Below, in pieces: positions 25,292 to 61,174 of a stretch of 64,000 bases of DNA. The DNA is taken from the NCBI GenBank assembly GCA_030550275.1, contig JAUQPR010000003.1, positions 69,571-133,570 of the forward strand, in the 5' to 3' direction. This DNA comes from Bacteroidota bacterium. Its GTDB lineage: Bacteria; Bacteroidota; Ignavibacteria; Kapaibacteriales; HRBIN21. Both the position numbers and the translations under genes were made by a program. The notes under the pieces are model-generated. The model was not told the origin of the DNA. It did no database searches and was given only the letters and a program-made list of their open reading frames with translations. Within the stretch, counting starts at the first letter, position 1. Every line of letters starts with the position of its first letter.

Positions 25292-28200
25292 ATGCTACGT
25301 CGGCTGGGGATTGCCATCGCCGCGGTTGTGAGCGCTACGGCAGCGGGAACTGGCTTCATTGAGAACCAAGGGCAGGTGCGCGACCGCTTCGGGCAGCTTC
25401 GCCCGGACATCCTCTTCGTTGCTGAACTGCCGGGGATGGAGCTCTTCGTCCACACCCGAGGCATCAGCTACGTGTTCACCGTGGTGGAGCTCTCCGAGGA
25501 GCTTCCCCCTGAACACCGCTGGCGCCGCCTCAGCGCTCGCCGCTACCGACTCGACCTGGAGTGGCTCTCCGCAGAGCCCTTCTTCCGGGTGCGTGCATCG
25601 GGAGCGCATCCCATGCTGCGCCACTACTACCTGCCGGGACGCACGGCGTTGAACGTTGCCGCCTACCAGGAGGTACAGCTTGAGGAGCTCTACCCGGGCG
25701 TGACGCTTCGGCTGCGGCTGGGCAGCGAAGGGCTCAAGTACGACCTGCTGTGCCGCCGTGCCGAAGATCTCGCCCGCGTGCGCTTCCGCTACGTCGGCGC
25801 GCAGCAGCTCTCCCTGCAGCCCGATGGGAGCTTGCTGGTGCATACCCCGCTGGGCACGGTGCGCGAGCTTCCCCCGGTGGCATTCCAGCTCAATCGAACC
25901 CTTGCAGCCGCCTATCAGCTCCACGGCGATACTGTGAGCTTCCGCGCTGCCGAAGCGCTTCCCCACCTGCCGCTGGTCTTTGATCCCGGTGTGGCGTGGT
26001 CCACCTTCTATGGTGGAAGCCGGCTGGAGGACTTCACCGCCGTCGCCGCAGACGCTGCCGGGAATATCTACCTGGCGGGCTGGAGTGTGAGCACAGACTT
26101 CCCCGTGGTGAACGCCTTCCAACCCAATTTGCGCGACACCCTGGCAACGGACATCGTCGTAGTCAAGCTCTCCGCAGCGGGCTCTCCAATCTGGGCAACC
26201 TATTACGGCGGCGATAGCAGCGATGCCGCCTACGGCATCGCCTGCGATGGCTCAGGGGAGGTGGTGGTTGTGGGCACCACCACGAGCCCGAACTTCCCCG
26301 TCCAAAACGCCTTCCAGAGCACGCTCTCGGGCTACTCCGATGCCGTCATCGTGCGCTTCAACAGCTCCGGGCAGCGCCTGTGGGCAACCTACTACGGCGG
26401 CAGCGGTGAGGAGACCGCCTACGGTGTGGCATTCCACCGCAGTGGGATCTTCGTCGGCGGCACCACGAGCAGCACGAACTTCCCCGTGCTCAACGCGCTC
26501 CAGAGCGTCCATGGAGGTGGCACCACAGATGGCTTCGTGCTGAAGTTCTCCGCTGCCGGGCAGCGCCTGTGGGCAACCTACTACGGCGGCAGCGGTGAGG
26601 AGGACCTCCGAGGAATCGCCGCTGACAGCCTCGGTGCCGTTCTCGCTGTTGGCATGACCACGAGCACGAACTTCCCCGTGCAGAACGCACTGCAACCGAC
26701 CTACGGTGGCGGACTCTCGGATGCCTTCGTGCTCAAGCTCTCCGGCTCTGGGCAGCGCCTGTGGGCAACCTACTACGGCGGCAATCGGCTGGACTTCGGC
26801 TACGGCGTCGCCACCGACGTGCGCAACATGGTCTATATCTGCGGCAGCTCCCTCAGCGACTCCATCCCTATGCGCTACGCCTTCCAGTCGCGCCGAGTTG
26901 CTGCACTGGAGGCATTCATCGCAGCGCTGGACACCGTCGGAGGTCTGCTCTGGGGCACCTTCTACGGCGGCAACGGTGTGGATGAAGCTCGCGGCATCGC
27001 CACCACGCCGCAGCGCCGCATCCTTGTGGTCGGCTCCACCAACAGCTCGAACTTCCCGCTCAACCAGCCGCTCCAGAACAGCCATGCCGGCAATGGGGAT
27101 GCCTTTGTGGCAGCCTTCAACTACGTGGGCGTCCAACTGTGGTCGAGCTACTACGGCGGCTCCAGCGCCGACATCTTCTACCGCGTCGCCGCCGATAGCG
27201 CAGGGAACTTCACCGCGGCGGGCAACTCCACAAGCTCGGACTTCCCCCTGCAGAACGCCTTCCAAAGCACGCTCCGCGGCGGGATGGATGGCGTTGCCGT
27301 GCGGTTCGAATGGGAGAGCATCCGCTGCTGGCTCCTGCGCCCCGGTCCGCTGTGCCCTGGCGACACCATCAGCATTGGATTCGAGGCACGGGGCTACTTC
27401 TTCCCGGACAACGTCTTCACCGCCGTGCTCTCAGATTCCACCGGCAGCTTCAACACCTCCACGCTCATTGGCTCCCTTGCCGGGCAGAGCAGCGGAGTCA
27501 TCCTCGGGCGCATTCCGGATACGGTCTCTCCGAGCAAGCGCTACCGGATTCGCGTCCTGGGTTCGCGCCCTGCAACCATCGGGAGCCCCAGCGATAGCTT
27601 CACGATTCTGCCCCGCCCAACGCCGCCGGTGATCACCGTGGAGCCGGATACTGTGCTCTGCCCCGGCGACAGCGCTATCCTGCGCATCGAACCGCAGGAG
27701 ATGGCAACCTACCGCTGGCTGCTCAACGGCAATCCCATCGGGAGTGACTCACCGCAACTTGTCGCCCGACAAGCCGGACGCTACAGCGTCCTTGTGCGCA
27801 CCCCGTGCGGGGAGGTGCGCTCCCAGCGCGATATTGTGCTCACCAGCGCCAATAGACCCGCCATCCCACGAATCGAGGTCCTGGGAGCACGCCGCTTCTG
27901 CCGAGGAGATTCCGCTATCCTCCGCACCGCCAACCAGGGTGGGGAGACCTCCTACGAATGGCTCCGCAACGGCGTCCTCATAGGGCAGAATGCGCCGGTC
28001 CTGACCGTCTCCCAAAGCGGCAGCTACACCGTGGTGGTGGCGAACCTCTGCGGTCGCGTTGCTTCGCCGGATACGGTACACATCCTCGTGGATGAACCGC
28101 TGGCGCCTCCGGAGTTGGTTGCCGAGGGTGCCACGCGCTTCTGCCAAGGCGATTCCGTCGTGCTCCGTACCCGCGCCGACAGCGCCATCATGGAATACCG

Positions 28201-29962
28201 CTGGTACCGCGATGGAACGCTCTTCCTGCGTAACGAGCGTGCCTGGCGCATCGCCGTGCGGCAATCGGGATGGTACAGCGTGGAGATCGTCAACACCTGC
28301 GGCGCTGTCCGCTCCGATAGCCTCCGCATCGAGGTCATCCCTCGACCGCTCCCACCGCGCATCACCGTCGAAGGGGGAACGGTGCTGTGCGCTGGCGATA
28401 GCACCCGACTGCGCACGGCAGAGCAACCGGGCGCAACGTACCAGTGGTACCGCGACGGTCGAGCCGTTGGACCCAATGCCCCTGTCTACGTCGTCCGGGA
28501 ATCGGGCACCTACACGGTCGAGGTCCGCACCGAATGCGGCGCTGTGCGCTCGCCCGATAGTGTTGTCATCCGCGTGTTGGATGCTCCACCAACTCCGCCC
28601 CTGTATGCCAGCGGCGCACCCCGACTGTGCGAGGGAGATAGCCTTGAGCTCTGGACAGAGCCCTTCACCGGTGCCCAGTACCAATGGACCCGCAACGGAG
28701 CTCCCGTGGGGGCTGATACGAACGTGCTCGTTGTGCGCCAAGCCGGCGTGTATCGAGTTCGCCTGCTGACGCCTTGTGGGGAAGCTGTCTCCGATTCCCT
28801 CGTCGTCGAGGTGCTGAGTCCACCCCCGGCGCCGGTAGTGCAGCCGCTGGGTCCACTCCGGCTGTGTGAAGGGGATTCGCTGCAATTGGTGCTCCGAGAG
28901 CGGCTCTCGGGCATCCGCTACACCTGGTATCGGGATAGCCTCCCACTGCCGTACACCGGGGATACGCTCACCGTCAGCACAGCTGCGACGTACTGGGTCC
29001 AAGCATCCAACGAATGCGGGGAAGCAGCCTCCGAGCGCCTCACCGTCGTCGTGCTCCCACGCCCGCCGAAGCCGGAGATCGCCCAGCGCGGCGATACCCT
29101 GGTCTCCAGCTCCCCTGTGGGGAACCAATGGCTGGATAGCACCGGAGCTCCCATTCCTGGGGCAACGGAGCAGTACTTCGTGCCACCCGGCAGTGGGCGC
29201 TACCGCGTGCGCGTGACCATTGATGGCTGCGCTTCGGAATCCGACCCGTACGACTACGTAGCGCGCGTCCAGCCGGTTGCAGCAGGGCTTCGGCTGCCAC
29301 AGGGACGGCGCTATACTCCGGGAGAGCGTATCGAGCTGGAGCTGCTGCTCCTGCCCGCCGGGCAAGCGCTCCCGCCGGGGAGACTGAGTGCACGCCTGCG
29401 TTACTGGGCGCGAGTTCTGGAGCCGCTCGCTCCGACGCCCTTGGGCAGCCTCCAGCAGGGTTGGCGAACTCTGCCGGTGGAGCTGCGAATTCCTGCACTC
29501 CCTGCCGGGACGGCTCAGCTCCGGCTCGCAACGGGGCTGCTCTTCCGTGTCCTCTTGGGCGATAGGGACTATACCCCGCTTCTGCTGGACAGCCTGCAGT
29601 TCCATGCCGAACGCACCTTCCCCTTCGTCGCCCTGCCTCCGGACACCCTGTGGGTGGAGATCTGCCGCGAGGGTGGAGAACGCCTCTTTGACCCAGAAAC
29701 GCCAGCGCTGCAGCTGCGTATCCTGCCGAATCCCGCTGCATCCGCGCCGACACTGCACTACGCTATCCCCGAGCCAGGGGACATCCGCATCCGCATGTGG
29801 AGCCTCTACGGCACGGAGGTAGCACGGCTCGTCGAGGGCTTCCACCAGCCTGGTCACTACGAGCTCCTCCTGGACACCGAGCGGCTCCCTGCGGGCGTGT
29901 ACGTGGTGGCGTTGCAAACCCCGACCCAAGAGGTGCGAACACTCCTGTACTACGTGCCATGA
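25292..29962 (+). CDS. Giant exported T9SS cargo protein: signal peptide, about 10 SBBP beta-propeller repeats, 9 tandem Ig-like (I-set-like) repeats, T9SS type-A C-terminal sorting domain
   Basis: Signal MLRRLGIAIAAVVSATAAG. The repeat YYGGSG..D.A.GIA.D..G...VVG.T.S.NFPVQNAFQ occurs about 10 times (aa 240-640). Nine ~80-aa repeats carry the Ig signature P.P.I...G...LC.GDS..L......YQW.R.G.......SG.Y.V.V.T.CG (aa 770-1290). The C-terminus LRILPNPAASAPTLHYA..IRIRMWSLYGTEVARL...LPAGVYVVALQTP is a Por_Secre_tail-type CTD. Confidence 0.85.
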   Translation: MLRRLGIAIAAVVSATAAGTGFIENQGQVRDRFGQLRPDILFVAELPGMELFVHTRGISYVFTVVELSEELPPEHRWRRLSARRYRLDLEWLSAEPFFRVRASGAHPMLRHYYLPGRTALNVAAYQEVQLEELYPGVTLRLRLGSEGLKYDLLCRRAEDLARVRFRYVGAQQLSLQPDGSLLVHTPLGTVRELPPVAFQLNRTLAAAYQLHGDTVSFRAAEALPHLPLVFDPGVAWSTFYGGSRLEDFTAVAADAAGNIYLAGWSVSTDFPVVNAFQPNLRDTLATDIVVVKLSAAGSPIWATYYGGDSSDAAYGIACDGSGEVVVVGTTTSPNFPVQNAFQSTLSGYSDAVIVRFNSSGQRLWATYYGGSGEETAYGVAFHRSGIFVGGTTSSTNFPVLNALQSVHGGGTTDGFVLKFSAAGQRLWATYYGGSGEEDLRGIAADSLGAVLAVGMTTSTNFPVQNALQPTYGGGLSDAFVLKLSGSGQRLWATYYGGNRLDFGYGVATDVRNMVYICGSSLSDSIPMRYAFQSRRVAALEAFIAALDTVGGLLWGTFYGGNGVDEARGIATTPQRRILVVGSTNSSNFPLNQPLQNSHAGNGDAFVAAFNYVGVQLWSSYYGGSSADIFYRVAADSAGNFTAAGNSTSSDFPLQNAFQSTLRGGMDGVAVRFEWESIRCWLLRPGPLCPGDTISIGFEARGYFFPDNVFTAVLSDSTGSFNTSTLIGSLAGQSSGVILGRIPDTVSPSKRYRIRVLGSRPATIGSPSDSFTILPRPTPPVITVEPDTVLCPGDSAILRIEPQEMATYRWLLNGNPIGSDSPQLVARQAGRYSVLVRTPCGEVRSQRDIVLTSANRPAIPRIEVLGARRFCRGDSAILRTANQGGETSYEWLRNGVLIGQNAPVLTVSQSGSYTVVVANLCGRVASPDTVHILVDEPLAPPELVAEGATRFCQGDSVVLRTRADSAIMEYRWYRDGTLFLRNERAWRIAVRQSGWYSVEIVNTCGAVRSDSLRIEVIPRPLPPRITVEGGTVLCAGDSTRLRTAEQPGATYQWYRDGRAVGPNAPVYVVRESGTYTVEVRTECGAVRSPDSVVIRVLDAPPTPPLYASGAPRLCEGDSLELWTEPFTGAQYQWTRNGAPVGADTNVLVVRQAGVYRVRLLTPCGEAVSDSLVVEVLSPPPAPVVQPLGPLRLCEGDSLQLVLRERLSGIRYTWYRDSLPLPYTGDTLTVSTAATYWVQASNECGEAASERLTVVVLPRPPKPEIAQRGDTLVSSSPVGNQWLDSTGAPIPGATEQYFVPPGSGRYRVRVTIDGCASESDPYDYVARVQPVAAGLRLPQGRRYTPGERIELELLLLPAGQALPPGRLSARLRYWARVLEPLAPTPLGSLQQGWRTLPVELRIPALPAGTAQLRLATGLLFRVLLGDRDYTPLLLDSLQFHAERTFPFVALPPDTLWVEICREGGERLFDPETPALQLRILPNPAASAPTLHYAIPEPGDIRIRMWSLYGTEVARLVEGFHQPGHYELLLDTERLPAGVYVVALQTPTQEVRTLLYYVP

Positions 29963-30741
29963 CCCACCTGGGACGGTTCATCGGACTGCTCTGCTGCGGC
30001 ATCTCCACAGCGCTGGCGCAGTATGCTGCCGGCGTGAGTATCGGCGCTGGGGTGAACCTGCATACGGCGGACTTCCGCACTGTATCGCCGGACATCCCCA
30101 ACTGCTGCCCTGGCTTTGAAGCCGGAAGCGGAGCGGCATGGAGCCTGGGTCTGACCTACGATGGGCTCCCGCTTGCTCCCCGCCTTCGGCTCCTGGGCGA
30201 GCTGAACTACCTCCGGCGGGATGCACGGCTGACCCAGCGCGAGGCAATTGTGTTCAGTTCCGACGATGGGCGCGCCGTTGCTGGCACAGTGCAGCACGAG
30301 CTTCAGACCCAGCTGGCATCGCTGGGGATAACACTGCTGCTGGGGTATTCGCCGCTTGGCTCCGTGCCGAGCTTGCAGCTGCGAGCCGGCATCCACACGG
30401 GGTGGACGGTGCTGGCAGCGTTCTCTCAGCAGGAGCTCCTCGTGGACCCACCGTACGGGCGCTTTTTGGACACGGGCACGCGCTCGCGCAACCACTACAG
30501 CGGCAAGCTTCCCAACGCCAGTTCTGTATCGGTCCTTGCCACCGTAGGAGCGCGCTACCTGCTTCCCATCAGCGACCTCTTCAGCCTCATGCCGACGGTA
30601 TCGGGATGGTTTGGGCTCACTCCCGTCGTCTCCGGCATTGCCTGGCGGGCTCATGCCCTGCACTTCAGCATGGGGATTGTTTACTCGCCGCTGCCGGAGG
30701 CACCCTCACCGCTCCGTCCCGGCTCGCCGGAACGCCCCTGA
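29959..30741 (+). CDS. Small outer-membrane beta-barrel protein (PorT / OMP_b-brl_2-like porin family)
   Basis: ATG at 29959 overlaps the upstream TGA (ATGA). Signal MTHLGRFIGLLCCGISTALAQ. 260 aa with alternating hydrophobic beta-strand pattern (VSIGAGVNLHTADF, LGLTYDGL, LGITLLLGYSP). Confidence 0.55.
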   Translation: MTHLGRFIGLLCCGISTALAQYAAGVSIGAGVNLHTADFRTVSPDIPNCCPGFEAGSGAAWSLGLTYDGLPLAPRLRLLGELNYLRRDARLTQREAIVFSSDDGRAVAGTVQHELQTQLASLGITLLLGYSPLGSVPSLQLRAGIHTGWTVLAAFSQQELLVDPPYGRFLDTGTRSRNHYSGKLPNASSVSVLATVGARYLLPISDLFSLMPTVSGWFGLTPVVSGIAWRAHALHFSMGIVYSPLPEAPSPLRPGSPERP

Positions 30742-30743
30742 GC

Positions 30744-32051
30744 ATGCGCGCAAGCGCTGCAGCGGCAATCGCCCTCTATGGGCTCACCCTCTTTGCCCAG
30801 GAGCCCCCGGTGCTCCTGCGCGATCTGCGCATCTACGGTGGCACGGACGAGACCGCTCCCCCAATCCTCCAGCTCCCCTCGGAGGAGGCGCCATTGGAGG
30901 CGCCGGGCTACCCGTTTGTAACCCTGGAGCTCGACGTTGAAAGCCCGCTTCCGCCGGCGCTTCTGGCTCGGTTGGTCCACTGCCGTCCAGACTGGCAGGA
31001 GAGCCAAAATGTCTTCCTCGCCTTCGGTCTTGCGGGCACAACGCTCTTCTCCTGGGAGAGCGCTCCTGCCCCTTCGAGCTTCTACACCTACCGAGGGCGG
31101 CTTCGACTGCCCAACGCACAGCTCTCGGTGCCGTATGCGGGCAATTGGAAGGTGCTCCTCTACGACGCCCGAGCCCCAACGACCCCATTGGCGGAAGCTC
31201 GCTTCTTCGCTGTCAAGCCCGCAGCGGAGTGCCGTGTAACGGTGTACGCGGACCTCTATACGGCATCCCCCGGCGTTAGCCCTGCTGCGGTGACTGTGGA
31301 AGCCTGGGTCCGCCCCCTTTCGGCTCGCCGTACCGACCGCCGCCTCCATACGGTGGTCTTCTACCGCAACCACCGCTGGTGCGAGCCGTACGTGGTCACC
31401 CAGGATGCCCGAATCGCCGACACGCGCCAGCTCTACAGCACGGGCTACCGCAGCAGTATCTCTGGGATGCTCCCGGCAGGGAAGCTCTTCCGGGTGGAGC
31501 AGCTCCCGGCGCAGAACGAGTACCGAGTGCTGGACCTGAGCAATCCCGCACAGTTCCCTCCCGGTGCTGCTCAGCCCATCCGGCTCCCCATGGCGGATCT
31601 GCGCCGCCGGGGCAACTTCTGGGAGTTCGCCGATGATGGTGCCCTCCGCTCCGCCCATCTTCCTCCGCATCTGCAGGACTACATTCCCGTGGAGTTCATC
31701 CTCGACCCCGAAGGCGCCCCACCCAGCGCGCAGGAGCTCTTCCTGGTGGGCTCCTTCAACCACTGGTGTCCTTCGGCACAGTGGCAGCTTGCCTGGGATG
31801 AGCAGGAGGGCGTCTACCGGCTCCGACAGTTGCTGCGGCGCGGGCGCCACAACTACCTCTACGCCACCGGTCGGCTCAACGCCGACACACGCCAGGTCGA
31901 AGCGCTCGATTTCACCGAATGGGAGGGCAACACGACCGCTGCGCGGCACACCTTCTTTGCCTTCGTGTACTACCTGGAGCCCGATTTCGGCGGCTACGAT
32001 GCCCTCATCGCCGTCGGAGCCGCCAGTATCTACGGTCCGCTCCGCCGCTAA
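30744..32051 (+). CDS. Exported protein of unknown function (435 aa); DUF5103-like T9SS-associated protein is a low-confidence possibility
   Basis: ATG at 30744, 3 bp after the upstream stop. Signal MRASAAAAIALYGLTLFAQ. No motif I can assign confidently. The context (cargo then beta-barrel then this gene) suggests a secretion link. Confidence 0.4.
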   Translation: MRASAAAAIALYGLTLFAQEPPVLLRDLRIYGGTDETAPPILQLPSEEAPLEAPGYPFVTLELDVESPLPPALLARLVHCRPDWQESQNVFLAFGLAGTTLFSWESAPAPSSFYTYRGRLRLPNAQLSVPYAGNWKVLLYDARAPTTPLAEARFFAVKPAAECRVTVYADLYTASPGVSPAAVTVEAWVRPLSARRTDRRLHTVVFYRNHRWCEPYVVTQDARIADTRQLYSTGYRSSISGMLPAGKLFRVEQLPAQNEYRVLDLSNPAQFPPGAAQPIRLPMADLRRRGNFWEFADDGALRSAHLPPHLQDYIPVEFILDPEGAPPSAQELFLVGSFNHWCPSAQWQLAWDEQEGVYRLRQLLRRGRHNYLYATGRLNADTRQVEALDFTEWEGNTTAARHTFFAFVYYLEPDFGGYDALIAVGAASIYGPLRR

Positions 32052-33358
32052 CGCCGCAGCGCCAGCAGCTCGACCAGCATCTGGTCGCTGACGCTCATCG
32101 TGCGTGCCGCTGCCTCAAACGCCCGCTGTGTGGCGATGAGGTCGCTGAACTCCTCGGTCAAATCCACATTCGACTCCTCCAGTGCCCCCCCGACGACCTG
32201 GACGCTGGGGAAGCTCTCGCCAGCCGTGCCGAAGATCGGCGCACCACTGCTGGGCGATAGCGCGAGCAGATGCTCCCCTTGCCGCAGCAGCCCCTCCGGA
32301 TTGGGAAACTTCGCCACCACGAGCTGCGCCAGGACCTCCGACCGCCCGTTACTGAAGCTCCCGATGAGCCTGCCCGCAGCATCAACGCTGATGCCGAGCA
32401 GCTCACCGGCGGTGTACCCATCCTGCTCAACTACCTGCACGGTGCTCTGCCCGGCAAAATGCGTCAACCCAGCAAGCGGATTGCTGGCTGAGCTGAGCTC
32501 CACCGTTACCGACTTCGTGGCATCGAAGAGCTCCGCGCCGCCGAGGGCTGCGTTGAGCTCGCTCCCTGCCAGGGCAATCGTGAGCGGGGAGCTGAGCGTC
32601 CCATCGGCGGCAAACTGCACCGGGCTTGCCCCCGCAGGCAAGGTCACCGCCGAACCGTCCAGAGTAACGCTCAGCTCGAATTCGTTCGGTGTTGCGGTCT
32701 TGCGGAACTCCAGGCGCAATACGTGCGTCCCTCCGCGCACGTCGTAGATGACCGCGCTAACGGCAACGGACTCCCCTTCTGCCAGGCTTGTGCTCAAATT
32801 CCCGCTGAGCCGGACCCGTTCGGTCTGGTGCGGTGGAGACTGCAGCCCCGGCGGGATCTGAATTGTGCCCAACTGGCGAGAGAGGACCGCTCTACCGGAA
32901 GCATCGCGCACAATGCGTCCCCCAGCGGTCTGCACTACGTACCCTTGCACGAACGCTCCCGAGGCGCTCTCCACCAGATTCCCCGCAGCATCCAACGCAA
33001 AGCTCCCTGCACGCGTGAAGTACATCTGCCCCTGTGCCCGCACCACGAAGAAGCCCTCGCCCTGTAGCGCCACATCCAGGGGGCGTCCCGTATACGTGAG
33101 CGTGCCCTGAGACAGATCCCGAACCACCGCGGCGAAGCGAACCCCGTTGCCGATTTGCAGCGGATTCGTCCCACCGACCTCTACGCCTGCAGCGCTGCCC
33201 AGCCCAAACCGCAGCGCCAATGCCTCGGCGAACAGCGCCCGCGACGCCTTGTAGCCAATCGTGTTGACGTTGGCGATGTTATCGGCAATGACCGCCAAGC
33301 GGCGCTGATGCGCCTGAAGCGACGACCGCGCCGAGTTCATCGAATGAAGCAACGCCAT
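32048..33358 (-). CDS. flgE: Flagellar hook protein FlgE
   Basis: N-terminus MALLHSMNSARSSLQAHQRRLAVIADNIANVNTIGYK (flagellar basal-body rod/hook N-terminal motif). C-terminal ...AFEAAARTMSVSDQMLVELLALRR. Start taken as ATG 33358-33356 (the ORF track starts at 33385). Confidence 0.85.
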   Translation of the reverse strand: MALLHSMNSARSSLQAHQRRLAVIADNIANVNTIGYKASRALFAEALALRFGLGSAAGVEVGGTNPLQIGNGVRFAAVVRDLSQGTLTYTGRPLDVALQGEGFFVVRAQGQMYFTRAGSFALDAAGNLVESASGAFVQGYVVQTAGGRIVRDASGRAVLSRQLGTIQIPPGLQSPPHQTERVRLSGNLSTSLAEGESVAVSAVIYDVRGGTHVLRLEFRKTATPNEFELSVTLDGSAVTLPAGASPVQFAADGTLSSPLTIALAGSELNAALGGAELFDATKSVTVELSSASNPLAGLTHFAGQSTVQVVEQDGYTAGELLGISVDAAGRLIGSFSNGRSEVLAQLVVAKFPNPEGLLRQGEHLLALSPSSGAPIFGTAGESFPSVQVVGGALEESNVDLTEEFSDLIATQRAFEAAARTMSVSDQMLVELLALRR

Positions 33359-33385
33359 TGTGCGTACCCGCAACTGGTGGAACAT

Positions 33386-34060
33386 TCATCGCCGACGAAC
33401 CTCCAGGACTGCCGAGAGCGGAACCTCAATTCCGCCAAGCCGGAGATAGGCGCCATCGGCAGCAAATCTGACCGCTTCCACAACACCTTCGACGAACGCG
33501 CCCAGCTCCTGTTCCCCACCCGTCTCCATCGTTGCCACGATCCGAATGCGGTACTCCCCTGCCGGGAGCCGATTCCCCGCCGCATCTGTGCCATCCCATT
33601 CAAACCACTGCTCTCCTGCCGATACCCCACGCCGCTCCACAGAGCGCAGCACCCGACCATCGGACGCCAGGACCTCCATCCGCACTGCTGCAGTGCCTTG
33701 GGGAACTTCGCAGCCCACCCGTACCGAACCCTGCACTCCCAGCAGGAGCTTTCCAGTCTCTGCCCGCACTGTACTGCCCAGCAACGCCGGTGCAGAAGCA
33801 CTCCCGATGCCCTCCATGAGCGCTGAGAGTTGCCCCACCTCCAGCTCCATCAACTGCCGCATGGAGAGGAGCTGCTCCAATTGCGAGAACACCGCCAGTT
33901 GGGCTGCCAGCTCCTGCCCGTCGTACGGGCGCACGGGGTTTTGGAGTCGGAGCTGCATGGTCAGCAGCTTCAGGAATGCATCCCTGCCCATCTCCGTGCG
34001 CTGGGGCTGGAGAGCCTTCGTCGAGAGCGATTGTGGTGCAATTGCATCAACCCTTGGCAT
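33386..34060 (-). CDS. flgD: Flagellar hook capping / assembly protein FlgD
   Basis: FlgD N-terminal motif DAFLKLLTMQLRLQNPVRPYDGQELAAQLAVFSQLEQ. C-terminal Ig-like (FLgD_ig) segment. Confidence 0.8.
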   Translation of the reverse strand: MPRVDAIAPQSLSTKALQPQRTEMGRDAFLKLLTMQLRLQNPVRPYDGQELAAQLAVFSQLEQLLSMRQLMELEVGQLSALMEGIGSASAPALLGSTVRAETGKLLLGVQGSVRVGCEVPQGTAAVRMEVLASDGRVLRSVERRGVSAGEQWFEWDGTDAAGNRLPAGEYRIRIVATMETGGEQELGAFVEGVVEAVRFAADGAYLRLGGIEVPLSAVLEVRRR

Positions 34061-35075
34061 GGACTGCTCCCGTGGAGGGTGTCACATCTTGGCTTGTCGC
34101 GGCAGCGGCGTTCCGATGCCACCGGAAGGAGGACACAAACCGATGGCGCTCCCGGTACTCCTGCGCATCGGGATTACCCTGAGGGAGAGATCCGCCGGAG
34201 AAGCCCATCTCCGAAGAGCGGACCCGCACCTCCAGCAGCTCCAACCGAAGTTGTCGTCCCGCAAGCATCCGCTCCAGCTCTGCGGTATTGCTGCCCAAGG
34301 TCCGCCCCAGCTCGCTGGATTCCGTCTCCGCTTGCACTCGGACGGAATCCTCCGCCACCGCCACCGATAAGGCGAGAGTGCCCCACTGGGGCAACTCTAC
34401 CCGCATGTGCGCAACCGCTGGGGGATGCTCGCTGCGCCCCGCTGCTGCGCTCCGCATGAGCTCCTGCAGAAAGAGCGTCCGGAGCTGCATCTCCAAAGCG
34501 TGCTGCCCGGTTACGCCTTGCAGTGTCGGTGGACTCCCTTGCTCCGAGCCTACCGCACCACTCGCCGTGCTCATGGCAGAGAATGCTCCCGCGTGCACTC
34601 CCTGGAGCCCATCGGCTCCGTTCGGTGGAGCAAATTCTCCGAACCTCGCCTGCGCTTCTCCTTGACCGCCTTCCGGCAAGAGCACCTCGGCAGCTGGATT
34701 CGCCTGGGAGGTCTCCGGACCGGATGCCTGAGGGTCCGCAGGCTGGGCAGCCCCCAAGGGGTTGTCCATGAGTGCCTGCCCGAGCCCACATTCGGGCTTG
34801 TGGAATGCCCTCGCCGTTTGGTGTGGAAACCCAAATCCAGCGTCTCCGTTGGGAACCGCCGTCGGTAGAGCAGAAGCCGTAGCGCCAGGAGCAGCGCCCT
34901 CCCCTCCGGGCAGGATGCGCGGGAGCATCTGCATTGCCTGCAGCAGTGCAGCAAACCCGTACGCGTTCTCTCCTACAGGCTCCCCCTGCTGCGACGGCGT
35001 CCTCGTCCCGCCGAACGGCTGGCTTCGTGGCAGCTCTCCACCCCAGCGGATGTGCATCCTGCACCGTTGGCTCAT
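34047..35075 (-). CDS. fliK: Flagellar hook-length control protein FliK-like
   Basis: Low-complexity A/G/P-rich N-terminal region. C-terminal Flg_hook-like domain (RVELPQWGTLALSVAVAEDSVRVQAETESSELGRTLGSNTAELERML). Overlaps the flgD start by 14 bp. Confidence 0.6.
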   Translation of the reverse strand: MSQRCRMHIRWGGELPRSQPFGGTRTPSQQGEPVGENAYGFAALLQAMQMLPRILPGGEGAAPGATASALPTAVPNGDAGFGFPHQTARAFHKPECGLGQALMDNPLGAAQPADPQASGPETSQANPAAEVLLPEGGQGEAQARFGEFAPPNGADGLQGVHAGAFSAMSTASGAVGSEQGSPPTLQGVTGQHALEMQLRTLFLQELMRSAAAGRSEHPPAVAHMRVELPQWGTLALSVAVAEDSVRVQAETESSELGRTLGSNTAELERMLAGRQLRLELLEVRVRSSEMGFSGGSLPQGNPDAQEYRERHRFVSSFRWHRNAAAATSQDVTPSTGAVHAKG

Positions 35076-50239: not shown

Positions 50240-50623
50240 ATGCGCGAGAGCATTATTGCAGCGCAGGCTCCACAGCCGATCGGTCCGTACGTGCACGCTG
50301 TTGCCGTCAGCGGAACGTTGGTGTTCGTTTCCGGGCAGATCGGTATCACCGCAAGCGGGGAGCTCGTCGCTGCGGACGTGCGGGCGCAAACGCGGCAGGC
50401 GTTGGAGAACCTGCGGGCAATTTTGGAGGCGGCGGGCTCAGATCTGGGGCACGTGGTCAAGACAACGGTCTTCCTCCGCTCGATGCAGGACTTCGCCGCG
50501 ATGAATGAGGTCTACGCCGAGTTCTTCGGCGCTACTCCTCCGGCGCGAACGACGGTGGAGGTCTCCGCGCTTCCGCGCGGGGCGCTGGTGGAGATTGAAG
50601 CGATCGCCGTGCGCCCGCTATAG
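50240..50623 (+). CDS. ridA: RidA / YjgF / TdcF reactive-intermediate deaminase family protein
   Basis: ATG at 50240 (MRESIIAAQAPQPIGPYVHAV). C-terminal RidA signature PARTTVEVSALPRGALVEIEAIA. Confidence 0.8.
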   Translation: MRESIIAAQAPQPIGPYVHAVAVSGTLVFVSGQIGITASGELVAADVRAQTRQALENLRAILEAAGSDLGHVVKTTVFLRSMQDFAAMNEVYAEFFGATPPARTTVEVSALPRGALVEIEAIAVRPL

Positions 50624-52984
50624 CACGATGCACGGAAGGCTCCAGGAGCGCAGCCCGGTGCGGAGTCGGAGCTGGTAAAATCCCGGGGCAAGCTCGTGCG
50701 GCAAGCGGAAGGAGGCAAAGCCCTCGGCGCCGTGCACCAGCGCCTGCCAAATCCGGACACCGTGCACGGAGACCAGCTCCAGCAGCACTGTGCTGCTTTC
50801 CGGCTCTCCGAGCTCGAGGGTGGCGTATTCGCCGCGCCGGAGCGGGTGCGGCAGGAGCCGAGGCATCGGCTTCTCGGCGGCTTCCAGCACGGGGAGGGTT
50901 GTATCGCCGAACTCCCATATCCGGATTCGGGTCAGCCAAACGCCGTCGAAGCTCCCCGAAGCGTCGCTCAGCAACCGGAAGCGGAGCAGAAGCGGCTTCC
51001 CAGCAACGCCGGCGAGCACCGCCCGCTGCGGAATCCACAGCGGGAAGTTCCCATCGAAGCCGTAGCCGCTCTCCTGGCGGCTGGAAGCGATTCCGGAGGC
51101 AGGGCGCATGCGCTCGGTTCGGACGGGCTGCCAGCGTGCGCCACCATCGGTGGAGAACTCCACAACGGCGAAATCGAAGCGGGCTTCCACGCTCCAGCGT
51201 ATCCAGAACTCCAGGACCGCTGTGCTGCGGGGGGTGATAGTGACGGGCAGGCGCTGTTGCAGCACCAGAGTCGCCGAATCCGGATATGCCCCATCGGGGC
51301 TGTCGGTCAGTGCCCATTGCTCCACGGTGGAGTCGTACGCCAGCGCCCAGTCCCGGAGGTCCCAGTACACCGAGTCTGCGGGCTGCTCAAAGAGCGTGTG
51401 CACGACTGGGCGTCCTCCCCACAGAGAGAGCGTATCGCGGCGCAGGACGCCGTCCTGCTCCAGTTGCAGCTCCAGGTGCAGCGGTGCACCGTTGGGGCGT
51501 CCGGAGGCGTAGTGCAGCGACCACGTCCCCACAGTGCACTGCGCCGGTGGCAGTTCGGGGAGCTGGAGCGGGGAATTGCTCACCTGGACGAGGCTGTCCA
51601 GGCTGACGATACGCACGGCGGCACCGGCAGGGGCGGTTTGTGCCCCGAGATTGCACAGCTCCAGGCGCAGGGTTGGCGAAGGCTCCCACTGCAGCTCCCA
51701 TCGGAATGGGCGGAGATTGGCTCCCGCGCTCCAGGCGATCTGTCGGTTGAGCCAGAGGTTCTCCCGCGCGTGGGGAAGGATCCGTTCGGGCTCGGGCCAG
51801 AAGCCGTCCAGGAGCGAGCCGACCTCGGCGGTCATCGCAAGCGTCTTGGGTTTGCCGTCGCTTGTGTCGTACATCCAGTCGTCGGAGGCGCCGCGCACGG
51901 CATAGCCGACCGTTTCCCGGTCACGTCCGAACGAATACAGGCTGGGGCGCGAAGCCTCGGCACAGAGCAGGCGGTAGAGGAGCGAATCCGGCGTCTCCCG
52001 CGGCAGCGCCGCGTATGGGTAGATGAGGAACTCGCCGTAGGTGTGGTAGTTCAGCGCCGTGTGGAAGGGGAGGCTCAGGCAGAGGTCTCGGAGCGCCTGG
52101 GTCTCCGGCTCGGAGAAAGGGGCGGTTCCGCGGTAGGTGTCCGAGCGCGGGTTGGTTGAGGAGCCTCGGTTGGGGGAATCCCAGAAGTGCGGTGGACCGT
52201 AGTTGCGGTTGAGGTCTACGCCGTAGCTGCCATCGGGGTTGGGACGGCGGTTTTTGCGCCACATGCCGCCACCCTCTGGAGCGGTCTCTTCGTTGTAGGC
52301 GTAGCCGTCGGGATTGACTACCGGGACGACGTAAAGCAGCCGATTGCGCAGCAGGAAGAGCGCCTCCGGGTCGCCGCGCCGTGCTCCTTCCAGCAGCCAC
52401 CACAGGAAGTACACCAGCGTGGTCACGCCGCCAGGTTCGCGGGCATGGTGCAGAGCCGTGTAGAGAGCCGCCGGGACGGTGTCCGGGTTCGCCGCCAGGG
52501 TGAAGCGGTAGCCGTAGATGGGGCGCCCCTCGACGGAGTAGCCGATGATCTCCGGCTCGGAGACGGCTTCGGGGAGGAAGCGGCGCATGCGGTCGAATTC
52601 CTCGAAGATCTCGTGTAGCCGGTAGAAGCCGCCGAGTGTGCCCAAGCGGAAGTTGGCAGGGTCATCCGCTGTGGGCGTGGGGAGGGCTGCCCGACGAATC
52701 CGCTCCCTGTAGAAGGCGGCAAGGTCAGCGATGAGCGTATCCAGCCGAAGTCCCGACTGCTGCAGTTGTGCAACGCCGGAAGCCGGGAGCACCGCCGTCA
52801 GGCAATGGCTGCCAAGCCGGAGGCTATGCTCGTCGGCGCCAGCATCCCAGAGGAGCTGCCAGGGGAGCGAATCGCTCCAGCAGAGACGGACCAGCATGAA
52901 GGGCTCCGGTGGAGAGACCCTGAGCGGTTGCGCCAGCGCAGAGCCGGCGCACAGCAATGCCACGGTAGCGTTGCGGAGGCTCAT
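50618..52984 (-). CDS. Secreted M14 zinc carboxypeptidase with T9SS C-terminal sorting domain
   Basis: Signal MSLRNATVALLCAGSALAQ. M14 motifs (HAREPGGVTTLVYFLWWLL, NPDGYAYNE, VDLNRNYG, the YHTYGE region). C-terminal LLPHPLRRGEYATLEL..VLLELVSVHGVRIWQAL...LAPGFYQLRLRTG is a T9SS CTD. Confidence 0.8.
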   Translation of the reverse strand: MSLRNATVALLCAGSALAQPLRVSPPEPFMLVRLCWSDSLPWQLLWDAGADEHSLRLGSHCLTAVLPASGVAQLQQSGLRLDTLIADLAAFYRERIRRAALPTPTADDPANFRLGTLGGFYRLHEIFEEFDRMRRFLPEAVSEPEIIGYSVEGRPIYGYRFTLAANPDTVPAALYTALHHAREPGGVTTLVYFLWWLLEGARRGDPEALFLLRNRLLYVVPVVNPDGYAYNEETAPEGGGMWRKNRRPNPDGSYGVDLNRNYGPPHFWDSPNRGSSTNPRSDTYRGTAPFSEPETQALRDLCLSLPFHTALNYHTYGEFLIYPYAALPRETPDSLLYRLLCAEASRPSLYSFGRDRETVGYAVRGASDDWMYDTSDGKPKTLAMTAEVGSLLDGFWPEPERILPHARENLWLNRQIAWSAGANLRPFRWELQWEPSPTLRLELCNLGAQTAPAGAAVRIVSLDSLVQVSNSPLQLPELPPAQCTVGTWSLHYASGRPNGAPLHLELQLEQDGVLRRDTLSLWGGRPVVHTLFEQPADSVYWDLRDWALAYDSTVEQWALTDSPDGAYPDSATLVLQQRLPVTITPRSTAVLEFWIRWSVEARFDFAVVEFSTDGGARWQPVRTERMRPASGIASSRQESGYGFDGNFPLWIPQRAVLAGVAGKPLLLRFRLLSDASGSFDGVWLTRIRIWEFGDTTLPVLEAAEKPMPRLLPHPLRRGEYATLELGEPESSTVLLELVSVHGVRIWQALVHGAEGFASFRLPHELAPGFYQLRLRTGLRSWSLPCIVL

Positions 52985-58848: not shown

Positions 58849-60163
58849 GGAGCTCCTGCGTGAGCGCCGCTGGAGCGAGCTGCGGGAAGCCCTGGCGGAT
58901 TGGCAGGCTCCGGAGATCGCCGAGCTGCTTTTGGAGCTGGACAAAGCCGATCGCATCATCCTCTTCCGGGCGCTCCCGCGCTGGATTGCCGCAGAGGTCT
59001 TCTCCTACCTGGAGCCAGCACAGCAGGATGCATTGCTGCGGGAGCTCACCGACCAGGAGACCCGAGAGCTCCTGCGCCAGCTCAGCCCAGACGATCGCAC
59101 GGCACTCCTGGAGGAGATGCCCGCCGAGGTTACCCGCCGCCTGCTAACGCTGCTCAAGCCCGAAGACTTCCGCGAAGCCAGCTTCCTGCTGGGCTTCCCC
59201 GAGCAGAGCGTCGGGCGCTTGATGACCCCGGAATTCGTGGCACTGCTCCCCTATTGGACCGTCAGAGAGGCACTCGAGTACCTGCGCCGCTATGGACGCG
59301 ACAGCGAGACGCTCAACCACCTCTACGTCACCGATGACGAGGGGCACCTGCTCGGCGAGGTCCCACTGCGCACGTTGGTCCTTGCCCCCGAGCATGCCGT
59401 CATCGCGGATGTGATGAACTACTCGGTCGTGAGCCTCTCTGCTTTCGAGGACCGCGAGACCGCCGTGCACATGATGCAGAAGTACGACCTTTCGGTCTTG
59501 CCGGTGGTGGATTCCGACGGCGTGCTGCTGGGCATCGTGACCTTCGATGATGTCATGGACGTCTCGGTCGAGGAGGTGACCGAGGACTTCCAAAAGATTG
59601 CTGCTGTAGCCCCCATCGAGTTCCCGTACCGCGAGGCATCGGTCTGGCATCTCTGGAAGCGCCGAGTGGGATGGCTGTTGCTGCTCCTGGTGTCGGACTT
59701 CCTCACCTCCACGGTGATCGCCACGTATGAGGGGGCGATTCAGCGCATCATCGAGCTGAGCTTCTTCATCCCGGTGGTCATCGGTACGGGGGGCAACGTT
59801 GCGACGCAGTCGGCAACGATTATCGTGCGTGCGTTGGCGCTGCGGGAGATCGTGCCGCGGGATTGGCTGCGGGTGTTCTTCAAGGAACTTGCCGTTGGAG
59901 CTGCTCTGGGCAGTGCGCTGGCGCTGGTGGTGTGGCTGCGAGGCTTCTTCTGGCGGGGCGGACCCGAGGTAGCGCTCGTTGTGGGCATGAGCATGCTGTT
60001 TGTGACGATTTGGTCCAATCTCGTCGCCTCCGTCTTCCCCGTCCTTGCCAAGCGCGTGGGAATAGACCCGGCGCTCATCTCCGGTCCGTTCCTGACGACC
60101 TTCATTGACGTCACGGGGTTGCTGATCTACTTCAACGTGGCTGAGTGGTTGCTGCTGAGGTAG
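58817..60163 (+). CDS. mgtE: Magnesium transporter MgtE
   Basis: ORF 58460..60163 trimmed to ATG 58817 ([22 protein letters not shown]). MgtE N-domain, tandem CBS ([21 protein letters not shown].., [26 protein letters not shown]), and membrane domain ([20 protein letters not shown]). Confidence 0.88.
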
Positions 60164-60168
60164 TGGAG

Positions 60169-61128
60169 ATGCCGTCTGTGCATACACTCCGGCGGGTGGT
60201 CATCACGGGTGGAGCAGGATTCTTGGGGTCGCACCTCTGCGACCGCTTCGTGGCGGAGGGGTACGAGGTGGTCTGCATTGACAATTTGCTGACCGGCTCG
60301 GTGGACAACATCGCCCACCTGTTGGGGCACCGGCGATTCCGCTTTGTGCACTACGACGTGACGAACTACCTCTACGTCGAGGGCGAGCTCTTTGCGGTGT
60401 TGCACTTTGCTTCGCCGGCTTCCCCGAAGGACTACCAGATGCACCCCATTCACACGCTCAAGGTGGGCTCGTTGGGAACCCACAAGGCGTTGGGGTTGGC
60501 AAAAGCCAAGGGAGCCCGCTTCCTGCTTGCCAGCACCAGCGAGGTTTACGGCGACCCATTGGTGCACCCGCAGCCGGAGGAGTACTGGGGAAATGTCAAT
60601 CCCATCGGGGTGCGTGGAGTCTACGACGAAGCAAAGCGCTTCGCCGAAGCGATGACGATGGCGTACCACCGCTACCACGGGCTCCAGACGCGGATTGCGC
60701 GGATCTTCAACACCTACGGACCGCGCATGCGCATGGATGATGGGCGGGCAATCCCGACCTTTATCGTGCAGGCGTTGCGGGGAGAGCCCTTGACAGTCTA
60801 CGGCGATGGGCGGCAGACCCGCTCGGTCTGCTACGTGGACGATATGGTCGAGGGGCTCTACCGGCTGCTGCTGTCGGAGGTTGTCGAACCGGTCAATTTG
60901 GGCAATCCGGACGAGGTCTCCGTGCTGCAGCTTGCCGAGGAGATTCGACAGCTTGTGGGGGCGAACAGCCCGATTGTGTTCGAGCCGTTGCCGCAGGACG
61001 ATCCCCGCGTGCGTCGCCCCGATATTCGCCGGGCTCAGGAGCTATTGGGCTGGGAGCCGACAGTGGAGCGCCGAGAGGGCTTGCTGCGGACGATAGCGGA
61101 TTTCCGCAAGCGGCTGGGGTGTTGCTGA
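60169..61128 (+). CDS. uxs: UDP-glucuronate decarboxylase (UDP-xylose synthase) / NAD-dependent epimerase-dehydratase family
   Basis: ATG at 60169 ([27 protein letters not shown]). Motifs [10 protein letters not shown] and [20 protein letters not shown] (catalytic YxxxK). Overall UXS-like layout. Confidence 0.75.
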
Positions 61129-61174
61129 AGTGGCAAAAGCCCTATTTTCGTGCCAAAACTCCTCGGGCTGGTGC

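What the first reader, a model, noticed from the sequence alone, without database searches (positions are those of the whole stretch)
29959..32051. PorT-like small outer-membrane beta-barrel and an unassignable exported protein, translationally coupled to the T9SS cargo gene
The 260-aa beta-barrel gene starts with an ATGA overlap on the cargo stop, and the 435-aa signal-peptide protein starts 3 bp after the barrel stop, so all three are co-translated. Small OMP_b-brl_2/PorT-family barrels are T9SS components or cargo-specific partners in Bacteroidota. The third protein has no motif I can place; DUF5103-type T9SS-associated proteins are a candidate family. This may be a dedicated cargo-plus-outer-membrane-partner module.
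Basis: inference. Interest (0 to 1): 0.55.

Follow-up and report, generated by a model that had tools for sequence, protein, structure and literature searches.

The report
T9SS cargo, partner barrel, relocated plug
In a Kapabacteria genome, a giant secreted surface protein is followed by a small outer-membrane barrel that accompanies this kind of cargo in many uncultured bacteria, which suggests an undescribed cargo-specific partner for the type IX secretion system; the third gene is the ordinary "plug" of that system.

Summary
Three tightly packed + strand genes are present: a 1556-aa cargo, a 260-aa protein that starts in an ATGA overlap, and a 435-aa protein that starts after a 2-nt spacer.

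- **Third gene.** It can be assigned.
- **260-aa protein.** It models confidently (pLDDT 90) as a small OmpA/OmpX-like outer-membrane barrel. It matches no family model itself, but its relatives match OMP_b-brl_2. No PorT, PorP or PorQ model matched.
- **Barrel family.** It has 1384 relatives and no informative annotation. Most are about 680 aa: the barrel followed by two OmpA peptidoglycan-binding domains.
- **Cargo link.** In 25 of 74 metagenome loci, the gene just upstream of the barrel ends in a type-A-like T9SS sorting domain. The background rate is 1.8%. These upstream proteins share a roughly 230-aa C-terminal module with the window cargo even when the rest of the protein differs.
- **Plug link.** The plug lies near the barrel only in this narrow clade. 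Elsewhere it sits in a bamD–thioesterase–plug–ruvB context.

Verdict: cargo plus barrel is a conserved, undescribed cassette, analogous to type-B cargo with PorP/SprF and PorE. The plug is a relocated core component.

The parts
25292..29962 (+). Cargo gene, 1556 aa. It has a signal-peptide-like N-terminus, DUF7948, SBBP beta-propeller repeats, repeated Ig-like (Ig_7/CHU_C-associated, PKD-like) domains, and a C-terminal module with a type-A-like T9SS sorting domain.
   Evidence: DUF7948 E 5.6e-37, Ig_7 E 3.7e-24, SBBP E 1.7e-23. The same gene is called on public contigs.
29240..29959 (+). C-terminal module of the cargo, about 240 aa (roughly aa 1317-1556). It consists of an unannotated domain of about 150 aa (motifs PGD..P, FN..LL.P, F.A.LGD, G.F.L.GIC..GG.RL) followed by the sorting domain. 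This is the part shared by barrel-linked cargos.
   Evidence: BLAST of the window cargo against genes upstream of barrels: residues 1343-1545 match in L092, L093, L099, L106, L110, L117, L123, L142, L143, L145, L147, L156 and L162, and in the VWA/WD40 proteins of L173 and L175. Alignment. Pfam has no match for aa 1257-1477.
29723..29932 (+). Type-A-like T9SS C-terminal sorting domain (aa 1478-1547; PNP ... G.Y ... LQTPTQ).
   Evidence: PF18962 Por_Secre_tail E 4e-4 (21.1 bits, cut-off 27) on the isolated C-terminus. TIGR04183 E 0.0054 (16.7 bits, cut-off 23). Both are below the curated cut-offs. Homologous tails of other barrel-linked cargos reach E 2.8e-10.
29959..29962 (+). ATGA junction: the barrel start codon overlaps the cargo stop codon.
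   Evidence: Sequence read.
29959..30741 (+). Small outer-membrane beta-barrel, 260 aa. It has a signal peptide (...STALA|QY), a barrel probably of 8 strands, and a Pro-rich C-terminal tail (PSPLRPGSPERP). In most relatives that tail is the linker to two OmpA domains; here the OmpA domains are absent.
   Evidence: AlphaFold2 pLDDT 89.9, pTM 0.82. Best Foldseek matches in PDB are OmpT, OmpA, Ail and OmpX, E about 1e-6. 1384 relatives, most of them barrel plus two OmpA_C domains. No Pfam or NCBIfam match for the window protein itself.
30094..30117 (+). Family signature IPNCCPGF (aa 46-53) with an invariant Cys-Cys pair. It lies in the loop between strands 1 and 2, which I infer to be extracellular loop 1.
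   Evidence: C49 and C50 are invariant in 30 stand-alone members. The pattern P[GN][VI]P[NS]CCPx[FY] alone retrieved 171 relatives from metagenomes. The loop position comes from the model's secondary structure; the sidedness is inference.
30739..30746 (+). Barrel stop TGA, 2-nt spacer GC, plug start ATG.
   Evidence: Sequence read.
30744..32051 (+). T9SS Plug homologue (DUF5103), 435 aa, with a signal peptide (...LTLFA|QEP).
   Evidence: PF17116 29.6 bits, above the cut-off of 23.9. NF052315 T9SS_plug E 4e-19, 68.9 bits, below the equivalog cut-off of 100. The family profile matches PDB 6h3j_C 'Plug' at E 1.7e-12 over positions 77-434, and 4r7f_A at E 1.6e-19. More than 120 homologues, mostly labelled PF17116.

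Best explanation
The locus joins two things.

**(1) A conserved two-gene cassette.**
- The first gene encodes a giant Sec-exported surface protein. It ends in a specific C-terminal module of about 230 aa: an unannotated domain of about 150 aa followed by a type-A-like T9SS sorting domain.
- A small, probably 8-stranded, outer-membrane barrel is encoded immediately downstream. In most lineages the barrel carries two periplasmic OmpA peptidoglycan-binding domains. In this clade only the Pro-rich linker remains.

Proposed mechanism (inferred): the cargo crosses the outer membrane through the T9SS. It is then received or held at the cell surface by its cognate barrel, through the barrel's conserved surface loops (the Cys-Cys loop and the PPYG.F.DTG.R.RN loop). 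Where the OmpA domains are present, they tie the complex to the cell wall. This would do for this subclass of sorting domain what PorP/SprF plus PorE do for type B cargo.

**(2) The plug.** The gene after the barrel is the organism's homologue of the T9SS Plug, the periplasmic protein that seals the idle SprA translocon. It is a core component. In this clade it has moved from its usual place upstream of ruvB to sit behind the cassette. It probably shares the transcript but does not belong to the conserved module.

**Shown:** gene structure, fold class, family relations and gene-neighbourhood statistics.
**Inferred:** secretion by the T9SS, physical contact between cargo and barrel, the sidedness of the loops, and co-transcription.
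For: **Gene structure**
-.

**Barrel fold**
-.

**Barrel family**
- 1384 relatives. In the top 150, 25 are stand-alone (335 aa or fewer) and about 120 are 600-900 aa.
- The six long forms tested all carry OmpA_C, five of them as two stretches.
- 13 of 30 stand-alone members match OMP_b-brl_2.

**Link between cargo and barrel**
- In the 81 barrel loci analysed (80 from a metagenome scan plus L092), 25 of the 74 with an upstream gene have a gene ending in a sorting domain at position -1. No other position has more than 7.
- The background in control loci from related taxa is 15 of 839 genes, or 1.8%.
- Independent curated models agree: Por_Secre_tail and TIGR04183 each match 16 of 26 tightly coupled upstream C-termini.
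- Gaps are mostly -4 to +50 nt.
- GC content of these loci ranges from 0.26 to 0.64, so the pairing is not one lineage's synteny.
- 20 of 29 coupled upstream proteins are homologous to the window cargo; the last ~200 aa match in most that carry the sorting domain.
- In L173 and L175 the passenger is VWA plus WD40, yet the same C-terminal module and a downstream barrel are present.
- L092 has a cargo with PKD_6 and Por_Secre_tail that ends 1 nt before a stand-alone barrel.

**Plug**
- Identity.
- Usual context is era-bamD-thioesterase-plug-ruvB-proS.
- The window's ruvB is at 61130-62200 with no plug upstream.
- A barrel was within 6 kb of the plug in only 1 of 80 other genomes. In that one, a 467-aa membrane-protein gene separates them.

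**Known precedent**
- A cognate barrel encoded directly downstream of a T9SS cargo, plus an OmpA-type wall anchor, is established for type B cargo: PMC9143113 and PMC12618676.
Against: - No experiment or complex prediction shows that cargo and barrel touch.
- The window cargo's sorting domain scores below the curated cut-offs.
- Published work holds that type A sorting domains are handled by PorV (PMC12618676), so a second partner may be unnecessary.
- About two thirds of barrel loci have no sorting-domain gene at position -1. One stand-alone barrel follows a protein that looks cytoplasmic (PPDK_N/NTP_transf_2).
- The sorting-domain HMM used for the 25/74 count was built from 15 of those positives. 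The Pfam and NCBIfam counts are the independent check.
- The window barrel lacks OmpA domains, so wall anchoring cannot apply here.
- An 8-strand count is my reading of a model in which DSSP reports 9 strand segments.
- I could not test whether the genome has a second plug paralogue.
Confidence: 0.5

Rival explanations
1. The barrel is a general-purpose OmpA-like structural porin or wall anchor. Its position after giant surface-protein genes reflects shared envelope regulation or operon convenience, with no specific binding to the cargo.
For: - The closest relatives are OmpA-family proteins with two OmpA_C domains, named 'OmpA family protein' where named at all.
- About two thirds of loci lack a sorting-domain gene at position -1.
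- One stand-alone barrel follows a non-secreted-looking protein.
Against: - The enrichment is about 19-fold and is specific to position -1.
- The upstream partners share one particular C-terminal module even when the passenger domains differ.
- The strongly conserved motifs fall in loops rather than membrane strands, which is unusual for a purely structural anchor.
Confidence: 0.25
2. Barrel and plug work together. The barrel is an outer-membrane partner or anchor for the Plug, and the three genes form one dedicated secretion module.
For: - Barrel and plug are 2 nt apart here and overlap by 4 nt in three sister species.
- In 7 other plug loci, a different unannotated OMP-like gene of 215-250 aa sits directly upstream of the plug. 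It shows weak profile similarity to the barrel family (hhalign probability 93%, N-terminal half only).
Against: - No plug lies within 6 kb in any of 81 barrel loci.
- No barrel lies within 6 kb in 79 of 80 other plug loci.
- In the closest outgroup (L013), an unrelated 467-aa membrane-protein gene lies between them.
- The broad barrel HMM does not detect the other small OMP-like genes, and they match no Pfam family.
- In the solved complex the Plug binds SprA directly (PMC10994853).
Confidence: 0.1
3. The barrel is a general T9SS machinery component (the PorT/SprT, PorG or PorQ role) needed for secretion of all cargo in these bacteria.
For: - It is a small barrel in a T9SS context.
- PorT-type proteins are small barrels often classed with OMP_b-brl_2 (from my own knowledge, not tested here).
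- It sits next to a core component, the Plug, in this clade.
Against: - No T9SS component model matched any of 30 members at E <= 1.
- It is not found near the plug or other T9SS genes outside this clade.
- It tracks one cargo subclass.
- Most members carry OmpA domains, which PorT, PorG and PorQ do not (the comparison rests on my own knowledge).
Confidence: 0.1

Closest known systems
Type B CTD cargo with a PorP/SprF-like barrel and a PorE-like OmpA_C protein (P. gingivalis PG1035-PorP-PorE; F. johnsoniae SprB-SprF)
   Same: - A gene for an outer-membrane barrel lies directly downstream of, and is tightly coupled to, a T9SS cargo gene.
- The partner tracks the cargo's extended C-terminal region rather than its passenger domains.
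- An OmpA_C peptidoglycan-binding element is associated. PorE-like genes lie next to 6 of the porP-like genes in F. johnsoniae.
- Sources: PMC9143113 and PMC12618676.
   Different: - The barrel here is small, OmpA/OmpX-like and probably 8-stranded. PorP/SprF is a 14-stranded barrel.
- There is no PF11751 or TIGR03519 match.
- The OmpA domains are fused to the barrel in most members rather than encoded separately, and are absent in the window.
- The cargo's sorting domain resembles type A (Por_Secre_tail in 16 of 26), not type B.
T9SS Plug (F. johnsoniae Fjoh_1759, PDB 6H3J chain C; Pfam PF17116, formerly DUF5103; NCBIfam NF052315)
   Same: The third gene is a near full-length homologue with a signal peptide. 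It passes the Pfam threshold, and the family profile aligns to the solved Plug over about 350 residues.
   Different: - It scores below NCBIfam's equivalog cut-off (68.9 against 100 bits), so it is divergent, as expected for Kapabacteria compared with Flavobacteriia.
- Its genomic position behind a cargo-barrel cassette is specific to this clade.
OmpA-family proteins with an N-terminal OMP_b-brl_2 barrel (PF13568 plus PF00691); NCBIfam TDE1717-family barrels
   Same: - Fold class and domain order (N-terminal barrel, Pro-rich linker, OmpA_C) are shared.
- 13 of 30 stand-alone members match PF13568 and 7 of 30 match NF049866.
   Different: - The window protein matches neither model.
- The family has its own invariant signature (LPG[IV]P[NS]CCPxF, FEH, DTGxRxRN) and a specific linkage to cargo genes with sorting domains. 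I found neither in the three T9SS papers I read nor in three full-text keyword searches.
PorT/SprT
   Same: A small outer-membrane barrel encoded in a T9SS-bearing organism.
   Different: No sequence model connected them. PorT is a system-wide component not known to be paired with individual cargo genes (my own knowledge).

Membership tests
T9SS Plug (PF17116 / NF052315 / PDB 6H3J_C) | Match to Pfam T9SS_plug_1st above the gathering threshold | tested here: met
   29.6 bits against a cut-off of 23.9, residues 28-157.
T9SS Plug (PF17116 / NF052315 / PDB 6H3J_C) | Match to the NCBIfam T9SS_plug equivalog model above its curated cut-off | tested here: not met
   68.9 bits against a cut-off of 100, E 4e-19. 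This makes it a clear homologue but not an NCBI-grade equivalog.
T9SS Plug (PF17116 / NF052315 / PDB 6H3J_C) | Near full-length homology to the experimentally defined Plug | tested here: met
   The profile of 32 family members including the window protein matches 6h3j_C at E 1.7e-12 (profile 77-434, chain 67-414) and 4r7f_A at E 1.6e-19.
T9SS Plug (PF17116 / NF052315 / PDB 6H3J_C) | Binds and seals the periplasmic end of SprA | not testable with these tools
   Needs biochemistry or cryo-EM. The role in F. johnsoniae is described in PMC10994853.
OMP_b-brl_2 (PF13568) | Match to the Pfam model | tested here: not met
   The window protein has no match even at E <= 1. 13 of 30 stand-alone relatives do match (best E 2.5e-10), so the relation is at superfamily level only.
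Small OmpA/OmpX-type outer-membrane beta-barrel (fold class) | Signal peptide plus a closed antiparallel barrel of about 8-10 strands | tested here: met
   AlphaFold2 pLDDT 89.9 and pTM 0.82, all-beta with long hairpins. Best Foldseek matches are OmpT, OmpA, Ail and OmpX, probability 1.00, TM 0.3-0.5. The strand number was not verified from coordinates.
PorT/SprT | Sequence match to a PorT/SprT family model | tested here: inconclusive
   No T9SS component family appears among the matches of 30 members in NCBIfam or Pfam at E <= 1. I could not confirm that a PorT-specific model is in those libraries.
PorP/SprF (PF11751 / TIGR03519) | Sequence match to the family model and a 14-stranded barrel | tested here: not met
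   No match. The model is a much smaller barrel. FadL-like 14-strand structures align poorly, with TM about 0.2.
PorP/SprF (PF11751 / TIGR03519) | Encoded directly downstream of its cognate T9SS cargo gene | tested here: met
   ATGA overlap in the window. A sorting-domain gene is at position -1 in 25 of 74 barrel loci. This feature is shared by analogy, not by homology.
T9SS type A CTD (TIGR04183 / PF18962), for the upstream cargo | Match above the curated cut-off at the extreme C-terminus | tested here: inconclusive
   Window cargo: 21.1 bits (cut-off 27) and 16.7 bits (cut-off 23), correctly placed at aa 1478-1547. Homologous tails in other barrel-linked cargos reach E 2.8e-10. Three of 26 also give weak CHU_C (type B) matches.

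The most novel reading that the evidence does not exclude
This barrel family (LPGxPxCCPxF signature, usually fused to two OmpA domains) is a third, undescribed class of cargo-specific T9SS outer-membrane partner. It recognises an extended C-terminal module of about 230 aa that contains a type-A-like sorting domain. It anchors giant adhesin-like proteins to the surface and, through OmpA, to the cell wall. It would operate in Kapabacteria, Ignavibacteria and other uncultured relatives of Bacteroidota. This would show that type-A-like signals are not all served by PorV alone.
Probability: 0.35. Interest if true: 0.7.

Novelty: new variant of a known kind. Interest (0 to 1): 0.55.

Why it matters
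Current T9SS models assign type A cargo to the PorV shuttle with attachment to lipopolysaccharide, and type B cargo to cognate PorP/SprF barrels (PMC12618676). A widespread family with no informative annotation and 1384 relatives points to another route for surface anchoring. It is a small barrel with OmpA domains, tied to a distinct C-terminal module of giant surface proteins.

The route would operate in poorly studied lineages (Kapabacteria, Ignavibacteria and others) where nothing about the T9SS has been tested.

It also gives practical rules. The CCP-loop signature finds the barrels, and the 'GIC..GG.RL + PNP...LxTPT' tail finds their cargos. The hypothesis can be tested directly by deletion, pull-down or complex prediction.

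The plug result is ordinary, but it corrects an 'unassignable' label.

Tried and rejected
1. **Barrel-plug fusion.** The relatives of about 680 aa made me suspect barrel-plug fusion proteins (260 + 435 aa). Pfam showed instead a barrel plus two OmpA_C domains, so I rejected this.
2. **Word-index homologue search.** With the barrel alone it found only 5 proteins and missed the window's own cluster. The exhaustive profile search was needed.
3. **Barrel-plug co-occurrence.** Barrel HMMs, narrow and broad, searched against 80 plug loci found only L013 next to the plug, plus one unrelated hit in L072.
4. **Metagenome scan.** The 30-sequence alignment had no stretch conserved enough to search with. 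A 12-sequence subset worked.
5. **Other small OMP-like genes upstream of the plug** (the 7-member gene cluster I numbered 16). They have no Pfam family and only a partial hhalign match. I left this as a lead and did not count it as evidence.
6. **PDB sequence search with the barrel profile.** Nothing meaningful.
8. **Dedicated translocator.** I considered a type V or two-partner style role for the barrel and rejected it. A barrel of this size is too narrow for that, and the cargo carries a T9SS signal.
9. **Other T9SS genes.** A scan of 20 more of the larger ORFs in the window, plus the public Pfam annotation of roughly 20.7-42 kb, found none.
10. **Literature.** Searches for Kapabacteria plus T9SS and for SBBP/OmpA/T9SS found no description of this cassette.

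Full report
**Observation.** The window is GC-rich. The plug protein is 100% identical to one found on public contigs including GCA_053498915.1, and close homologues are labelled Candidatus Kapabacteria.

- Cargo, 25292-29962, 1556 aa.
- A 260-aa gene whose ATG at 29959 overlaps the cargo's TGA stop (ATGA). It ends at 30741.
- A 435-aa gene that starts at 30744 after a 2-nt spacer and ends at 32051.

Four public contigs of the same organism carry the same three gene calls. The plug's stop codon overlaps the stop of a convergent flgE gene, so the unit ends there. The coordinates and junctions are confirmed. Co-translation is only inferred from the spacing.

**The third gene is the T9SS Plug.**
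- It passes Pfam's threshold for T9SS_plug_1st, the former DUF5103, at 29.6 against 23.9 bits.
- It matches NCBIfam's T9SS_plug at E 4e-19, though below the equivalog cut-off.
- It has more than 120 homologues, nearly all pre-labelled PF17116.
- A profile of 32 family members aligns over about 350 residues to the solved F. johnsoniae Plug (6h3j_C, E 1.7e-12) and to 4r7f_A (E 1.6e-19).

Plug seals the quiescent SprA translocon (PMC10994853).

**The middle gene is a small outer-membrane barrel of a family with no informative annotation.**
- The window protein matches no Pfam or NCBIfam family.
- With six orthologues, AlphaFold2 gave pLDDT 81. With 30 family members it gave pLDDT 89.9 and pTM 0.82, and all five models agreed.
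- The model is all-beta with long antiparallel hairpins.
- Foldseek's best PDB matches are OmpT, the OmpA transmembrane domain, Ail and OmpX.
- I read the model as an 8-stranded barrel. On that reading the Pro-rich C-terminal tail is periplasmic. The loops carrying the most conserved motifs (IPNCCPGF with an invariant Cys-Cys, and PPYG.F.DTG.R.RN) would face outwards. The sidedness is inference.

An exhaustive profile search found 1384 relatives. Among the best 150, about 120 are 600-900 aa and 25 are stand-alone proteins of 335 aa or fewer. My first guess was that the long forms are barrel-plug fusions. That was wrong: the six tested all carry OmpA_C after the barrel, five of them as two stretches.

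Thirteen of 30 stand-alone members match OMP_b-brl_2 and seven match the TDE1717 barrel family. None matches a PorT, PorP, PorQ or PorG model. Where sources give a name, it is 'hypothetical protein' or 'OmpA family protein'.

**Which neighbour matters?** I tested both adjacencies in other genomes.

*Plug and barrel.*
- In 80 species-representative genomes with a plug homologue (35-62% identity), a barrel lies within 6 kb only in the nearest relative, L013. There a 467-aa membrane-protein gene sits between barrel and plug.
- The commonest plug context elsewhere is era-bamD-thioesterase-plug-ruvB-x-proS.
- The window's own ruvB (61130-62200) has an NAD-dependent epimerase upstream instead. The plug therefore appears to have moved in this clade.
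- Conversely, none of the 81 barrel loci analysed (80 recovered from metagenomes through the CCP signature, plus L092) has a plug within 6 kb.

*Cargo and barrel.* This link is general.
- In 25 of 74 barrel loci with an upstream gene, that gene ends in a T9SS sorting domain. No other relative position has more than 7.
- In control loci from related taxa, 15 of 839 genes do.
- That count used an HMM I built from 15 of the positives. Curated models confirm it independently: Por_Secre_tail and TIGR04183 each match 16 of 26 tightly coupled upstream C-termini.
- Junctions are typically -4 to +50 nt, and GC content ranges from 0.26 to 0.64, so the taxonomic spread is wide.
- Twenty of 29 coupled upstream proteins are homologous to the window cargo. 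The last ~200 residues match in most that carry the sorting domain.
- In L173 and L175 the passenger is VWA plus WD40 rather than SBBP plus Ig. The same C-terminal module and a barrel 6 nt downstream are still present.
- The aligned module has a domain of about 150 aa with no Pfam match (motifs PGD..P, FN..LL.P, F.A.LGD, G.F.L.GIC..GG.RL). A type-A-like tail follows (PNP...E.G...D..GR.V...G.Y...L..G.Y...L.TPT).

*Exceptions.* Many barrel-OmpA genes have no cargo upstream. One stand-alone barrel follows a PPDK_N/NTP_transf_2 protein. Two follow large proteins that end in an FGE-sulfatase (GldK/GldJ-like) domain.

**Mechanism.** The best-supported reading is a cargo-specific outer-membrane partner. 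The giant protein is exported by Sec and secreted by the T9SS through its C-terminal signal. The cognate barrel then receives or retains it at the surface. In long-form members the barrel also ties it to peptidoglycan through OmpA domains.

This parallels the established arrangement for type B cargo, in which a porP/sprF-like gene lies directly downstream of the cargo gene. PorP binds the cargo's C-terminal domain, and PorE links PorP to the wall (PMC9143113; PMC12618676).

It is not a member of that family. The barrel is much smaller, no PorP/SprF model matches, the OmpA domains are fused, and the signal resembles type A.

No step of the physical mechanism has been shown here. The window's sorting domain also scores below the curated cut-offs. 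I put the cargo-partner mechanism at about 0.5.

Rivals:
- Generic OmpA-like anchor: 0.25.
- Barrel-plug pair: 0.1.
- General T9SS component: 0.1.

**Novelty and verdict.**
- The plug is an ordinary, already-known component.
- The cargo-barrel cassette is a new variant of a known kind. It follows the logic of SprB-SprF or PG1035-PorP-PorE with an unrelated barrel family and a different class of signal.
- I found no description of it in the three T9SS papers I read or in three full-text keyword searches.
- Interest is moderate (0.55). A T9SS specialist would find a second family of cargo-linked barrels worth testing, but all the evidence here is comparative.

Noticed in passing
window 60145-62200; loci L012, L023, L034, L036-L039, L044, L050, L051, L054-L056 and others: In many Kapabacteria and Ignavibacteria genomes the plug gene sits in a conserved run: era - bamD - acyl-CoA thioesterase - plug - ruvB - x - proS. 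BamD is within three genes upstream of the plug in 30 of 74 loci. The window's ruvB (61130-62200) has an NAD-dependent epimerase (60145-61128) upstream instead, so the plug seems to have moved about 29 kb in this clade.
   Followed up: partly
L017:5222-5869, L024:5220-5870, L026:5309-5980, L031:901-1578, L052:5157-5906, L066:5223-5894, L075:5214-5915: Seven plug loci carry an unannotated gene of 215-250 aa directly upstream of the plug, in most of them just downstream of bamD. It has a signal peptide and looks like an outer-membrane protein. It matches no Pfam family. hhalign against the barrel family gives probability 93%, but only over the N-terminal half. It might be a second, very distant small barrel recurrently placed before the plug.
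   Followed up: partly
window 32048-32051: The plug stop codon (32049-32051) and the stop of the convergent flgE gene (32048-32050 on the - strand) overlap, leaving no room for a terminator. A flagellar hook operon (flgE 32048-33385, flgD 33386-34060, fliK-like 34047-35075) directly abuts the T9SS genes.
   Followed up: no
L004:11305-12613 (JGI 3300071268): One metagenome contig of the same organism appears to carry a deletion. Only a 139-aa C-terminal FlgE fragment is called next to the fliK-like gene, and flgD is missing. The cargo, barrel and plug are intact.
   Followed up: no
L013:4583-5986: In the nearest outgroup species, a 467-aa multi-pass membrane-protein gene is inserted between barrel and plug. 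It resembles DUF389 by eye; I did not scan it. It breaks the barrel-plug junction, while cargo and barrel stay adjacent.
   Followed up: partly
L131 and L146 (genes upstream of the barrel-OmpA gene): Two barrel-OmpA genes are preceded by large proteins (1277 and 843 aa) that end in an FGE-sulfatase domain rather than a sorting domain. The domain also matches the GldK/PorK and GldJ models.
   Followed up: no
L174:3802-7753: This is an exception to the cargo rule. A stand-alone barrel starts 13 nt after a 1061-aa PPDK_N/NTP_transf_2 protein with no signal peptide. The neighbourhood also holds two T6SS Hcp genes and two small Por_Secre_tail proteins.
   Followed up: no
window 50618-52984 (- strand): A 788-aa M14 zinc carboxypeptidase with an InhA-like MAM domain. 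It may be another secreted or T9SS cargo protein. I did not check its C-terminus.
   Followed up: no
window 29959-30738 (tool behaviour): The word-index homologue search did not return the window barrel's own cluster (P0126/P0280, seen on 15 contigs), although it is in the collection. Only the exhaustive search found it.
   Followed up: yes
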